From Escherichia phage mEp013: a stretch of DNA of 52,961 bases. Shown here piece by piece: positions 1 through 7,359 of the stretch. The translations under genes and the position numbers were made by a program. Under the pieces are notes generated by a model. It was not told the DNA's origin. It saw only the letters and a program-made list of their open reading frames with translations, and did no database searches. The DNA is taken from sequence record PP180002. One strand, 5' to 3'. Each line of letters begins with the position of its first letter. Position 1 is the stretch's first letter.

Positions 1-60
1 GTTTTTCGTCAGTCTACCCATTCAAAAGATAAGTAGGTAACGCCATTTCTATCATTTCAC

Positions 61-129
61 ATCGTGTCACATCGTTACCGCTTCACCTTGATTTTAAAAG
101 AAATATTTATTCTATCGTGTCATATCGTT
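61..129. repeat. two 16-bp direct repeats ATCGTGTCA(C/T)ATCGTT (61-76 and 114-129) upstream of int; candidate Int arm-type or regulatory sites
   Basis: Read directly; 15/16 identical copies 53 bp apart, related TCACATCGTG at 57-66. Confidence 0.35.
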
Positions 130-160
130 CCCCATTGTGTTACTATCCATGCGTAAAATG

Positions 161-182
161 TGTGTACCAAATAGTGACCAAA
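161..182. repeat. left copy of 22-bp direct repeat TGTGTACCAAATAGTGACCAAA (att-associated: core or Int arm site)
   Basis: 21/22 identical to 52891-52912; ends 3 nt before int ATG; itself two tandem ~11-mers GTG(T)ACCAAA. Confidence 0.45.
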
Positions 183-185
183 ATT

Positions 186-1385
186 ATGCTTACAGATACC
201 AAATTACGAAACATTCACGGCAAGCCATACGATGGCCCGGAAGAAGTACCGGACGCTGGCGGATTGTCTGCCAGGATAAGCCCGCGCGGAGTTATATCTT
301 TCCAGTACCGCTACCGATTCAACGGCAAGCCTCGACGGATGAAGATCGGCACATACGGAGAAATAACACTCAAGGAAGCGCGGGCGGCGGTGGCGGAGCA
401 TAAGGAAGTTCTAAACTCAGGTCGAGATCCATCGGTAGCAAAAAGAATGCGCCTTTCCCGCGTTACGACACGGGCAACGGTTGAGGATATTGTAATGGAG
501 TACATGGGATCGCCGCAGGCAAGGAACATGGTCAATTATAAGCAGGTTGAGGCCATGCTAGATAAGCACGTCATAAAACCATACGGTGGCTATATAGTCG
601 ATGATATGGACGCTATGATGTGGGAAGGTGTTTTTAGAAGGGTTGCTAATGGTGGCGCACCAGTTCAGGCAGGTATAGTTCTCAACAGAATGAAGGCCGT
701 AATAAAATACGCCATGCGCCGCCGCCGCGTGGATCGTGACGACATATCATTACTGTGCGTTAAAGACGTTGGCAAAAAACCAGCGCAAGGCAAGCGCGTT
801 TTGTCAATACAGGAGATCCACCATCTAATTAGCCTTGTAGACAGTTCAAAAATGGCGAGGCTGAATCAGATATTGATGAAGCTGATTATATTTACCGGGT
901 GCAGGACAAGCGAACTAACAAACGCAAGGCGAGAGCATTTCGATCTTGATAGCTGTGTGTGGACGGTTCCGGGTGCATTAAGTAAGAACAGGAATGAGTT
1001 TAAACGCGGCTTATCCGACGTTAGCGTGGCTTTATTGCGTGAGGCTATGGATCTGCATAGCTTTGATTTTGTCTTCGTTCCTGTGCTTTCTGGAAGGGAT
1101 GAAGCGGTGGACAGGAGCGTTCCTAAAACAGCAGCAAGGGATTTAATGATGAGGATGTGCGGCGAGCCGTGGTCGTGTCACGATCTACGCCGCACCGTGA
1201 GGACAAACCTTTCAGCGCTTGGCGTTGCGCCTCACGTCGCGGAAAAGGTTTTGGGGCATAAGCTGGCGGGGATGTTGGCTATATACGATCAGTATGACTA
1301 TGTGAGGGAACAAATAGAGGCGATGAATAAACTGGCTGATTATTACATGAAGCCCATTGATTTACAAAATGAAATAACGTCCTGA
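186..1385 (+). CDS. int: tyrosine recombinase, P4-type phage integrase
   Basis: N-terminus MLTDTKLRN..GGL and C-terminal HxLRRT-type region typical of P4-like integrases; ATG at 186 chosen inside longer ORF 117..1385. Confidence 0.9.
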   Translation: MLTDTKLRNIHGKPYDGPEEVPDAGGLSARISPRGVISFQYRYRFNGKPRRMKIGTYGEITLKEARAAVAEHKEVLNSGRDPSVAKRMRLSRVTTRATVEDIVMEYMGSPQARNMVNYKQVEAMLDKHVIKPYGGYIVDDMDAMMWEGVFRRVANGGAPVQAGIVLNRMKAVIKYAMRRRRVDRDDISLLCVKDVGKKPAQGKRVLSIQEIHHLISLVDSSKMARLNQILMKLIIFTGCRTSELTNARREHFDLDSCVWTVPGALSKNRNEFKRGLSDVSVALLREAMDLHSFDFVFVPVLSGRDEAVDRSVPKTAARDLMMRMCGEPWSCHDLRRTVRTNLSALGVAPHVAEKVLGHKLAGMLAIYDQYDYVREQIEAMNKLADYYMKPIDLQNEITS

Positions 1386-1561
1386 TAACGGTAAAGAGAG
1401 CCGCCGCGCTTTAACGCTGGCATTCCCTTAACAGGTTCCGGAAAAGGAGTTCCGGAATCTTTCCATTTTTTAACCAGTTTAAAAAATGCTGACTTACTAA
1501 GCCCGCCTAACATTTTTTGCACTTGCTCGCGATTAATAAGTATTGTGCCGATTTTATCCAT
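1343..1561 (-). CDS. putative excisionase / AlpA-like HTH protein
   Basis: 72 aa, Xis/AlpA-like pattern (LINREQVQKMLG..FPEPVK..RGGSLYRYQDV); RBS GGGGA; TAATG coupling with upstream gene; convergent overlap with int 3' end lowers confidence. Confidence 0.4.
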   Translation of the reverse strand: MDKIGTILINREQVQKMLGGLSKSAFFKLVKKWKDSGTPFPEPVKGMPALKRGGSLYRYQDVISFCKSMGFM

Positions 1562-3226: not shown

Positions 3227-3780
3227 AATTCCAACCCCGTTTCGCCGTTAAGTTTTTCAATCTCAAATACTGGTTTATCAGGTAGCAGGCCGTTATTTTT
3301 CCGGTATTCGTTCAGACGGCTGTCAAAGTCAAACGCCAAATCATTGGCGTGACCAAATCGACCAGGTTTAAACAGTGAGTAAAAATTAACCCCGTGTCTA
3401 TTTGGATCAACGCAAAGCGTTTCATCAATCACCATTAAACGCAGAGTACGAGAAAGATAATTCCACGGTATTCCCGTTTCAGCGCTAATGTCGCGCATAC
3501 GCTTTTTAACGCTGTAGTCACCAAATAACGACGCGACACGCTCACGACGTTCAGCATATAACTGTTTGATACGATAACCCAGCAGACGGCGGCGGCGTCC
3601 AAAACATGTATACACGCGCTCGACGATACCGTTTTTTATTAAGTGTTTAATTGTCTCAGGCAGTAACCCGTCTTTGTCATATCCAGCCAATAACCCCGTT
3701 TTATTGCGTAACTGGTGCATTGTTGCGATGCCATCAAGTTCAAGGATATTGATAACTTTTGTTTCAAGTTCAGCGCTCAT
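3223..3780 (-). CDS. hypothetical protein (~185 aa; start uncertain, ORF extends to 3816)
   Basis: ATG at 3780 has GAGG RBS; GTG at 3816 lacks one. Confidence 0.55.
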   Translation of the reverse strand: MSAELETKVINILELDGIATMHQLRNKTGLLAGYDKDGLLPETIKHLIKNGIVERVYTCFGRRRRLLGYRIKQLYAERRERVASLFGDYSVKKRMRDISAETGIPWNYLSRTLRLMVIDETLCVDPNRHGVNFYSLFKPGRFGHANDLAFDFDSRLNEYRKNNGLLPDKPVFEIEKLNGETGLEL

Positions 3781-7115: not shown

Positions 7116-7217
7116 GTAGGTATGTTATGGATTGACTAGAAGGAACAAACCGCCGAACAAAGCGACGTTAACAGCAATTGCCGCAGCGATGGCAAAAGCC
7201 AGGGCGAAAACGTGTTT
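7116..7217 (-). CDS. small hydrophobic membrane peptide (33 aa)
   Basis: Hand-translated MDGKHVFALAFAIAAAIAVNVALFGGLFLLVNP; RBS GAGAGGA; below the 60-aa ORF-track cutoff. Confidence 0.4.
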
Positions 7218-7359
7218 ACCGTCCATTTTTAAATCCTCTCTGTAACGCTCTATAACGAGCTAATCGCAAAAAGGTATGCAAGTGTAGCACCCAATGCTTT
7301 TTAGCTCGCTGGTGAGCTTGTTTTGTGGGTAATTTTGGATTTTTGTGTATTGTGGTTGG

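What the first reader, a model, noticed from the sequence alone, without database searches (positions are those of the whole stretch)
161..182. 22-bp direct repeat at both ends of the window delimits the prophage
TGTGTACCAAAT(A/T)GTGACCAAA occurs at 161-182, ending 3 nt before the int start, and at 52891-52912, just after the tail-fibre terminator. These are either the att core duplication or matching Int arm-type sites on the P' and P arms. Additional 16-bp direct repeats at 61-76 and 114-129 favour the arm-site reading, with the true core at or beyond the window edges.
Basis: partly seen in the sequence, partly recalled or inferred. Interest (0 to 1): 0.5.

Follow-up and report, generated by a model that had tools for sequence, protein, structure and literature searches.

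The report
Integrase arm-binding sites flanking phage attP
The 22-bp repeat is real but is not the prophage boundary duplication: it is most likely a pair of docking sites for the phage integrase, one on each side of the true 10-bp crossover site, which is an ordinary feature of phage integration modules.

Summary
The 22-bp repeat is confirmed at 161-182 and 52891-52912 (0 chance matches in 100 shuffles). The window is a complete mEpimmI-group coliphage genome, opened 23 bp left of its attachment core, not a prophage with host flanks. Comparing attP, attL, attR and attB puts the crossover within AAAAGATAAG (window 24-33), in the 3' end of E. coli abgT, a site already published for this integrase type. 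Both 22-mers therefore lie inside attP, 231 bp apart. One follows the tail-fibre terminator (P arm). The other ends 3 nt before the int ATG (P' arm).

Each 22-mer is two tandem half-sites, nGTG(T)ACCAAAt. The element keeps its sequence, position and spacing (231, 232 or 241 bp) in relatives that integrate at ydaM or mppA. The DNA between the copies is only 56-59% identical. The integrase arm-binding domain is its best-conserved part (68-74%, against 31-43% for the core-binding domain). Type III phages carry a changed version in both arms.

Binding itself is untested. This is a textbook kind of feature, apparently not annotated or discussed for this phage group. Interest is low.

The parts
52863..52886 (+). 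Intrinsic terminator stem-loop at the end of the tail-fibre operon. Its T-tail runs into the first base of the P-arm 22-mer.
   Evidence: Scan (10-pair stem, 6 GC pairs, followed by TTTTTGTGTA). The terminator plus 22-mer block is conserved in all att types, even where the upstream tail-fibre sequence differs.
52891..52912 (+). P-arm copy of the 22-mer: two tandem half-sites, TGTGTACCAAAT and TGTGACCAAA. Proposed arm-type Int-binding sites P1 and P2. It ends 72 bp left of the core.
   Evidence: It is 20-22/22 identical in type Ia, Ib and II attPs and present as a variant in type III.
52913..52961 (+). P-arm spacer, A-tract rich (AAATCAAAAACAAAAACAAAGC...). It continues into window 1-23.
   Evidence: In attR of prophages, and in phage MagusPhagus, window 52961 runs straight on into window 1.
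1..23 (+). Core-proximal end of the P arm. It includes a possible core-type half-site, TACCCATTC (15-23).
   Evidence: This stretch is phage-derived in attR and is replaced by abgT sequence in attL. The inverted-repeat relation to 31-39 is only 6/9, by my own reading of the sequence.
24..34 (+). att core: AAAAGATAAGT is identical in attP and in K-12 attB. The crossover is confined to 24-33.
   Evidence: Four-way comparison of attP, attB, attL and attR. All 13 chromosomal prophages start matching the window at position 24. The C/T polymorphism at position 34 segregates with the P'/B' side in UMNK88 and N1286.
51..140 (+). Candidate binding sites for the excisionase, or for another accessory factor.
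   Evidence: The family is conserved within type II but replaced by unrelated repeats in type I (TAATxCCGTWC) and type III (GCGTAAAC). The role is inferred.
161..182 (+). P'-arm copy of the 22-mer: half-sites TGTGTACCAAAT and AGTGACCAAA. Proposed arm-type Int-binding sites P'1 and P'2. It starts 126 bp right of the core and ends 3 nt before the int ATG.
   Evidence: It is an island of conservation (20-22/22) in a P' arm that is otherwise 56-59% identical between att types.
186..1385 (+). int: a tyrosine integrase of 399 aa with an N-terminal arm-DNA-binding domain.
   Evidence: Pfam hits: Arm-DNA-bind_3 at residues 2-87 (7.6e-20), Phage_int_M, and Phage_integrase. PDB 3JU0 and 3JTZ arm-binding domains match residues 2-88. 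PHROG 1 integrase.
1343..1561 (-). Candidate recombination directionality factor (excisionase): a 72-aa helix-turn-helix protein whose gene overlaps the int 3' end.
   Evidence: ORF. Family support is weak: a Phage_AlpA hit that is not significant (E = 0.2) and phrog_4745 'DNA binding protein'. Homologues are present in types Ib and III at 43-46% identity. The function is inferred.

Best explanation
The two 22-mers are arm-type binding sites for the N-terminal domain of the phage integrase. One tandem pair sits in the P arm and one in the P' arm of attP.

Shown:
- The window is a whole temperate-phage genome of the mEpimmI group. Its record is opened 23 bp left of the att core.
- Recombination with the host takes place within AAAAGATAAG (window 24-33), in the 3' end of abgT.
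- Both 22-mers therefore belong to attP. After integration one ends up in attL, next to int, and the other in attR, next to the tail-fibre terminator.

Inferred:
- Four Int protomers bind the four half-sites (nGTG(T)ACCAAAt) through their Arm-DNA-bind_3 domains, while their core-binding and catalytic domains hold the core. This folds about 230 bp of attP into an intasome.
- Because the P' pair ends 3 nt before the int start codon, bound Int probably also lowers int transcription. This is what happens for intS of the KplE1 prophage.
- The type-specific repeats between the core and the P' pair are candidate excisionase sites.
For: 1. The 22-mer is not the core.
- The attP/attB/attL/attR comparison puts the crossover at 24-33.
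- All 13 prophages begin matching the window at position 24.
- Both copies occur on contiguous phage DNA, 231 bp apart: phage MagusPhagus and six IMG/VR contigs. This equals the window's circular distance.

2. Int has the required domain.
- Arm-DNA-bind_3 covers residues 2-87.
- Solved arm-binding domains 3JU0 and 3JTZ match.

3. Phylogenetic footprint against type Ia and Ib phages, which use a different core in ydaM.
- The 22-mers are 20-22/22 identical.
- The 210-220 bp between them is 56-59% identical, and the first 75 nt of int 65-71%.

4. The architecture is conserved.
- Copy-to-copy spacing is 231 bp in 5/5 type II, 241 bp in 6/6 type I, and 232 bp in type III.
- The distance from the P copy to the core is 93-94 bp in every type.

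5. The protein pattern fits.
- Between types, Int residues 1-65 are 68-74% identical.
- The core-binding region (residues 91-190) is 31-43% identical, and the catalytic part 46-55%.
- PMC11893012 also notes the conserved N-terminus.

6. The two arms changed together.
- Type III (mppA) phages carry ACCAT-type variants in both arms.
- G2, G4, C7, C8 and A9 are invariant in the 17 half-sites compiled (units I read from the sequences).

7. The motif is specific to attP.
- Only 5 GTG(N)ACCAAA motifs occur in the 53-kb window, and 4 of them are in the two 22-mers.

8. There is a precedent.
- In KplE1, IntS arm-type P' sites and TorI sites overlap the intS promoter and repress it (PMC2951348).
Against: - No binding, footprinting or mutational data exist. 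The mEpimmI paper does not mention attP, arm-type sites or direct repeats.
- The P copy is contiguous with a conserved terminator, so part of its conservation could be hitch-hiking.
- The candidate excisionase is also conserved across types (43-46% identity), so conservation alone cannot rule it out as the binder.
- The simple scan found no sigma-70 promoter in attP, so the autoregulation step has no mapped promoter.
- No exact IHF consensus was found.
- The Int N-domain of type III is no more diverged than that of type I, yet its sites differ more, so the protein-to-site correspondence is loose.
Confidence: 0.78

Rival explanations
1. The 22-mer is the att core itself, duplicated by integration, so the two copies mark the prophage ends and the sequence outside them is host DNA.
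For: The copies are direct repeats near both ends of the window, one next to int. That is the classic first impression of attL and attR.
Against: - Window 1-160 and 52913-52961 are phage DNA. They are contiguous in MagusPhagus and in IMG/VR contigs, which hold both copies 231 bp apart.
- In chromosomal prophages the host junctions lie at window 24-33, and the duplicated sequence is AAAAGATAAG.
- The unoccupied K-12 site shares only that core with the window.
Confidence: 0.01
2. The 22-mers are binding sites for the excisionase (the 72-aa HTH protein, 1343-1561 minus strand) or for another accessory DNA-bending protein, and the type-specific repeats (ATCGTGTCAY) are the real Int arm-type sites.
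For: - A homologous small HTH protein is present in types II, Ib and III, so a conserved binder other than Int exists.
- Tandem direct repeats with about 11-bp phasing are also typical of excisionase sites (general knowledge).
Against: - Excisionase sites normally lie on one arm, between the core and the arm-type sites. The 22-mer lies on both arms, distal to the core, whereas the type-specific repeats occupy the position expected for an excisionase.
- The Int N-domain is better conserved (68-74%) than the HTH protein (43-46%). Most residues just downstream of the conserved GG(L/I)S motif, where I expect the DNA-contacting helix, differ between types. That matches type-specific sites, not invariant ones.
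- If the variable repeats were arm sites, a conserved N-domain would have to read three unrelated motifs.
Confidence: 0.1
3. The repeat is an operator for a regulator shared by the whole immunity group (for example the common repressor), controlling int, rather than part of the recombination machinery.
For: - All mEpimmI phages share one immunity repressor (PMC11893012).
- The element is conserved across all of them, and one copy abuts the int start.
Against: - No further copy exists anywhere in the window, including the immunity region, even with 3 mismatches allowed. There is only one stray half-site, at 3349.
- The element is a tandem direct repeat, not a palindrome.
- The second copy sits behind a terminator with no gene to regulate.
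- The conserved spacing on both sides of the core points to recombination geometry.
Confidence: 0.04
4. The conservation is passive. The P copy rides with the conserved terminator at a mosaic boundary, and the P' copy is a leftover of an ancestral duplication with no present function.
For: - The P copy directly abuts a conserved terminator, and the divergent att module starts right after it.
- Two metagenomic contigs have lost the 231 bp between the copies, which shows that the repeats can recombine.
Against: - The P' copy is flanked on both sides by diverged sequence yet is 20-22/22 conserved.
- Position and spacing are held in four att types.
- Type III changed both arms in the same direction.
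- A neutral repeat that promotes deletion of the core should be lost, not kept.
Confidence: 0.05

Closest known systems
KplE1 (CPS-53) prophage attL / intS module of E. coli K-12, and its relatives HK620 and Sf6
   Same: - int reads away from attL, so its upstream region is the P' arm.
- IntS arm-type P' sites and excisionase (TorI) sites lie between the core and the int ATG and repress intS (PMC2951348).
- IntS aligns end to end with the window's Int (residues 12-386), so the architecture looks the same (IntS itself was not scanned for domains).
- By eye, tandem TTTTACCC repeats sit just before the intS ATG. I did not match these to the paper's mapped P' sites.
   Different: - Only 23% protein identity.
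- The arm-site motif is different, and the target is argW tRNA rather than the abgT coding sequence.
- KplE1's sites are mapped experimentally. Those here are predicted.
Bacteriophage lambda attP (P1, P2, P'1-P'3 arm-type sites, core C-O-C', Xis, IHF and Fis sites)
   Same: - A heterobivalent tyrosine integrase.
- Arm-type sites on both arms that are unrelated to the core sequence.
- An attP of about 240 bp.
- Tandem arm sites about one helical turn apart.
- Accessory-protein sites between the arm sites and the core on one arm. (Established knowledge; summarised in PMC2951348.)
   Different: - Lambda's N-domain belongs to a different family.
- Lambda int is transcribed towards attP, so its arm sites do not overlap its promoter.
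- Here only four half-sites are visible, and no exact match to the IHF consensus was found.
mEpimmI phage group att sites (Front Microbiol 2025, PMC11893012)
   Same: - It is the same phage group. The window starts at the same base as the mEp010 and mEp044 records and is probably mEp013 (PP180002), though I could not verify this.
- The paper already reports type II integrases integrating at the 3' end of abgT, and the conserved integrase N-terminus.
   Different: - The paper describes only the core 'insertion motifs'. It has no mention of attP, arm-type sites or direct repeats.
- The GenBank records carry no att or binding-site features here.
- The 22-mer, its half-site structure, its conservation across types and its fixed spacing are added here.
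P4 / CP4-57-like integrases with the Arm-DNA-bind_3 (DUF4102) domain
   Same: The same N-terminal domain family and the same three-domain layout.
   Different: - Most members of this family target tRNA or tmRNA genes. This one targets a protein-coding gene and truncates it: AbgT goes from 508 to 481 aa.
- I did not compare arm-site motifs with P4 itself.

Membership tests
Arm-type sites of a heterobivalent tyrosine integrase attP | The integrase carries a separate N-terminal arm-DNA-binding domain. | tested here: met
   Pfam Arm-DNA-bind_3 at residues 2-87, E = 7.6e-20, above the curated cutoff. PDB 3JU0 and 3JTZ arm-binding domains match.
Arm-type sites of a heterobivalent tyrosine integrase attP | The sites lie within attP but outside the core, on both arms, and their sequence is unrelated to the core. 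| tested here: met
   The core is at 24-34. The copies end 72 bp left of it and start 126 bp right of it, and both are present in contiguous phage DNA. The motif GTG(T)ACCAAA is unrelated to AAAAGATAAGT.
Arm-type sites of a heterobivalent tyrosine integrase attP | The sites co-vary with, or are conserved with, the arm-binding domain and are independent of core specificity. | tested here: met
   The 22-mers are 20-22/22 identical across types Ia, Ib and II, which have different cores, while the N-domain is 68-74% identical and the core-binding domain 31-43%. Type III changed both arms together.
Arm-type sites of a heterobivalent tyrosine integrase attP | The sites are bound specifically by the Int N-terminal domain. 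| not testable with these tools
   This needs gel shifts or footprinting with purified Int or its residues 1-90.
Arm-type sites of a heterobivalent tyrosine integrase attP | The sites are required for integrative and/or excisive recombination. | not testable with these tools
   This needs attP mutagenesis and integration or excision assays.
att core duplication (direct repeats bounding a prophage) | The repeat is the sequence shared by attP and attB, and there is only one copy in the excised phage. | tested here: not met
   The excised or virion-form genomes hold two copies 231 bp apart. The K-12 ogt-abgT stretch read around attB (L006 4200-4500) contains no 22-mer and shares only AAAAGATAAGT with the phage.
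att core duplication (direct repeats bounding a prophage) | The sequence outside the repeats is host DNA. | tested here: not met
   Window 35-160 and 52913-52961 plus 1-23 are phage DNA, found in all relatives. Host abgT sequence begins only at the 24-33 core.
Self-regulated integrase genes of the KplE1 type (int promoter overlapping attL) | int is transcribed away from attL, so its upstream region contains recombination-protein binding sites. | tested here: met
   int (186-1385, + strand) starts 152 bp right of the core, and the P' 22-mer ends 3 nt before the ATG.
Self-regulated integrase genes of the KplE1 type (int promoter overlapping attL) | A mapped int promoter overlaps the arm-type sites and is repressed by Int. 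| tested here: inconclusive
   The simple scan found no sigma-70 consensus promoter in attP. A TAAAAT hexamer lies at 154-159, by my reading of the sequence, but has no convincing -35. This needs 5'-RACE and reporter fusions.

The most novel reading that the evidence does not exclude
The mEpimmI phages could be a natural modular retargeting system. A constant scaffold is reused: the Int arm-binding domain, the four GTG(T)ACCAAA half-sites, and fixed arm-to-core distances that differ by whole helical turns (231 against 241 bp). The core-binding domain, the core DNA and the putative excisionase sites are swapped as a cassette, redirecting integration among three loci that the mEpimmI paper places about 7 kb apart (ydaM, abgT, mppA). 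In addition, the P' pair would double as an operator for int autoregulation, and the two direct repeats would occasionally recombine to give core-less, non-integrating variants, as seen in contigs L025 and L037.
Probability: 0.35. Interest if true: 0.4.

Novelty: new member of a known kind. Interest (0 to 1): 0.2.

Why it matters
It fixes the anatomy of attP for a prevalent group of gut coliphages: the core, both arms, the probable Int docking sites, and candidate excisionase sites. It also corrects two things. The window has no host flanks, and the integrase starts at 186, not upstream through the repeat as some records annotate it.

The comparison across four att specificities gives a clean natural experiment. 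The arm sites and the N-domain stay constant while the cores and the core-binding domain vary. That could guide integrase retargeting experiments and prophage-boundary prediction. Beyond that, it is a standard feature of lambda-type site-specific recombination.

Tried and rejected
1. tRNA/tmRNA target: ARAGORN found nothing in the window. The target is the abgT coding sequence.

2. Core-duplication reading: rejected by the four-way att comparison.

3. Loose pattern scans (GTACCAAANNNNGACCAAA) of genome contigs and viral contigs.
- After filtering only a few hits had meaningful context: L228 and L250 (type Ia attL), L117 and L205.

4. Sigma-70 promoter scan across attP: no hit, so the int promoter stays unmapped.

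5. Exact IHF consensus WATCAANNNNTTR: no hit in the contiguous attP locus.

6. Core-type inverted repeats: TACCCATTC (15-23) against AAGTAGGTA (31-39) around a 7-bp spacer is only 6/9 complementary, and attB is weaker still. I treat this as suggestive, not established.

7. Common-repressor operator: rejected because no further copy exists in the genome.

8. An upstream int start that would make the 22-mer coding (GTG 117 in this window; ATG near 150 in the mEp010 and MagusPhagus annotations).
- Rejected because spacer indels (ATT, TT, AATC) break that frame among type II relatives.
- All Int types begin MLTDT or MALSDT at the conserved ATG.

9. Identity of the window with mEp013 (PP180002): plausible, but that record is not in the searchable collection and the paper's main text does not contain the string '52961' or give this phage's length.

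Full report
**Observation**

- TGTGTACCAAATAGTGACCAAA lies at 161-182 and TGTGTACCAAATTGTGACCAAA at 52891-52912, both on the + strand.
- With up to three mismatches allowed, these are the only two matches in the 52,961-bp window. None of 100 dinucleotide-preserving shuffles produced any match.
- The left copy ends 3 nt before the int ATG at 186.
- The right copy starts in the T-tail of a predicted intrinsic terminator (stem 52863-52886) after the tail-fibre ORF (50284-52833).
- The 16-bp repeats at 61-76 and 114-129 are also real.

**What the window is**

- Both window ends coincide with the record ends of phages mEp010 and mEp044, at 96% identity.
- In phage MagusPhagus the two window ends are adjacent on one strand.
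- Six IMG/VR viral contigs carry both 22-mers on one stretch, 231 bp apart. That is exactly the circular distance from 52891 to 161 in the window.
- So the window is a complete phage genome of the published mEpimmI group (PMC11893012) written in prophage order. It is not a prophage with host flanks.
- It is probably mEp013, the third type II member of that study. I could not verify this.

**Where the real att core is**

- Thirteen E. coli chromosomes carry related prophages, and every one starts matching the window at position 24.
- They sit between ogt and abgT and split abgT.
- Reading attL and attR from strains N1286 and UMNK88 against the unoccupied K-12 site gives:
  - attB: ccaccAAAAAGATAAGTggataggg
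  - attP: cattcAAAAGATAAGTaggtaacg
  - The expected hybrids at attL and attR.
- The base at position 23 and a C/T polymorphism at position 34 both segregate with their flanks. This confines the crossover to AAAAGATAAG, window 24-33.
- At attR the sequence runs from window 52961 straight into window 1-23, which confirms that the window ends are contiguous phage DNA.
- Integration truncates AbgT from 508 to 481 residues.
- The abgT target for type II integrases is already published.

**Consequence for the repeat**

- Both 22-mers are inside attP. The P-arm copy ends 72 bp left of the core, and the P'-arm copy starts 126 bp right of it.
- The core-duplication reading is therefore refuted.

**Evidence that the sites are functional and read by Int**

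1. Int (186-1385) has an Arm-DNA-bind_3 domain at residues 2-87, followed by the central and catalytic domains. Solved CP4-like arm-binding domains match it.

2. Each 22-mer is two tandem half-sites about 11 bp apart, giving four in all. Only one other GTG(N)ACCAAA occurs in the whole genome.

3. Relatives with other integrase types use other cores: types Ia and Ib in ydaM, type III in mppA. They keep the element in both arms.
   - mEp021 and mEp554.
   - Type Ia contigs.
   - LSU61 and two further mppA prophages.

4. Against the window, the 22-mers of types Ia and Ib are 20-22/22 identical. The 210-220 bp between them is only 56-59% identical, and the start of int 65-71%.

5. Geometry is held.
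   - Copy-to-copy spacing is 231 bp in 5/5 type II attPs, 241 bp in 6/6 type I, and 232 bp in type III.
   - The distance from the P copy to the core is 93-94 bp in every type.
   - 231 and 241 bp are close to 22 and 23 turns of 10.5 bp. This is suggestive only.

6. Between types, Int residues 1-65 are 68-74% identical. The core-binding region is 31-43% identical and the catalytic part 46-55%. That is the pattern expected if the arm sites are shared and the cores differ.

7. Type III carries ACCAT-type variants in both arms. Across the 17 half-sites compiled, G2, G4, C7, C8 and A9 are invariant.

**Other parts of attP**

- Between the core and the P' pair, each att type has its own family of two or three direct repeats:
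  - TAATxCCGTWC in type I.
  - GCGTAAAC in type III.
- A 72-aa helix-turn-helix protein is encoded across the int 3' end (1343-1561, minus strand). Its family support is weak: an AlpA hit that is not significant, plus phrog_4745.
- It has homologues in types Ib and III at 43-46% identity. Most residues just downstream of the conserved GG(L/I)S motif, where I expect the DNA-contacting helix, differ between types.
- I infer that this protein is the excisionase and that the type-specific repeats are its sites. This is not shown.

**Mechanism proposed**

- Int protomers bridge the four arm half-sites and the core, folding attP for recombination with abgT.
- int is transcribed away from attL and the P' pair abuts its ATG. 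Bound Int therefore probably represses int, as demonstrated for intS of KplE1, where P' arm-type sites and TorI sites overlap the promoter (PMC2951348).
- The window's Int is only 23% identical to IntS but aligns with it end to end, so the architecture looks the same.
- The autoregulation step is the weakest. No consensus promoter was found in attP, and type II int has no visible Shine-Dalgarno sequence.

**Rivals**

- Binding by the excisionase or another accessory protein cannot be excluded by conservation alone. It fits the two-arm, core-distal placement poorly.
- A shared-repressor operator is unlikely, because no further copy exists in the genome.
- Passive conservation is contradicted by the isolated P' island, the fixed spacing, and the parallel change in type III.

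**Novelty**

- Arm-type sites are textbook features.
- The att site and integrase types of this group are published, but the paper never mentions attP, arm-type sites or direct repeats.
- The att-region stretches I retrieved from the mEp010, mEp021 and mEp554 records annotate none.
- This is a new, well-supported example of a known kind, of modest interest.

Noticed in passing
L025 (IMGVR_UViG_3300045988_076816) and L037 (IMGVR_UViG_3300045988_064823); corresponds to window 52913-52961 plus 1-182: In two type II viral contigs from one metagenome, the terminator is followed by a single 22-mer and then directly by the int ATG. About 230 bp, including the att core, is missing, as if the two direct repeats had recombined (or the assembly collapsed). 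Int is intact in L025. Such phages should be unable to integrate.
   Followed up: partly
L013 (IMGVR_UViG_3300045988_111075), downstream of the P arm and core: After ccattcAAAAGATAAGT the sequence does not continue into abgT. By my reading of the DNA it continues into what looks like a small AlpA/Vis-like ORF (...KDGGFPAPIKMGRSSRWLKSEVEAWL...). This suggests a second integrative element sitting in tandem at the same att site.
   Followed up: no
window 24-33 junction; L003 and L005 (attR); L263, L265, L266 (type III attR): Integration at abgT creates a TGA at the core/P-arm junction and truncates AbgT from 508 to 481 aa without restoring the C-terminus. By contrast, type III phages integrating in mppA supply a substitute start and signal-peptide-like 5' end (by my translation, MNKIMIYILFLPLCIISLSYA...), and RefSeq annotates a full-length-sized mppA CDS there.
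   Followed up: partly
L117 4100-4143 (MAG, Robiginitomaculum sp., contig JAJFFP010000073.1): An exact copy of the window's right-hand 22-mer, plus a third TGTGTACCA unit, lies 22 nt upstream of an integrase gene in an alphaproteobacterial MAG. That integrase has a DUF6538-type N-terminus, not Arm-DNA-bind_3. It could be chance, given a 15-base search pattern on 596 Gb, or a shared motif. It is unexplained.
   Followed up: partly
L205 about 7185-7220 (IMGVR_UViG_3300002898_000029): Three tandem TGTACCA-type units (CTTGTACCATTT, TTTGTACCAAAT, AGAGACCAAA) lie just after what looks by eye like a tRNA 3' end and a terminator-like hairpin, at the lysis-gene end of a viral contig. ARAGORN called no tRNA, presumably because the contig end cuts it. 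The same arm motif may be used by a tRNA-targeting integrase elsewhere.
   Followed up: no
window 149-186; mEp010 record CDS 150-1385; L001 CDS 1638-2873: The mEp010 and MagusPhagus records start the integrase CDS at an upstream ATG, so the P' 22-mer is annotated as coding. In the window that ATG is out of frame, and the spacer between the 22-mer and the ATG varies (ATT, TT, AATC). The true start is therefore the conserved ATG at 186. Type II int has no visible Shine-Dalgarno sequence, whereas types I and III have GAGG or GGGGG there.
   Followed up: partly
window 197-204 (int codons 4-6): A third TACCAAAT unit lies 21 bp after the second P' half-site, inside the int coding sequence (GAT ACC AAA TTA). 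It is conserved in type II only. It may be an extra arm-type site or just codon usage.
   Followed up: no
window 52913-52940 and the aligned P arms of all types: The run CAAAAACAAAAACAAAG just right of the P-arm 22-mer is partly conserved across att types whose flanks are otherwise diverged. It may be an intrinsically bent segment or a host-factor site. No exact IHF consensus was found.
   Followed up: no
L027 (IMGVR_UViG_3300045988_049781), downstream of the type I core: The type I core CATTCCAGACAGG is followed by sequence that is neither ydaM nor a P' arm. This could be a different host context or another tandem element.
   Followed up: no
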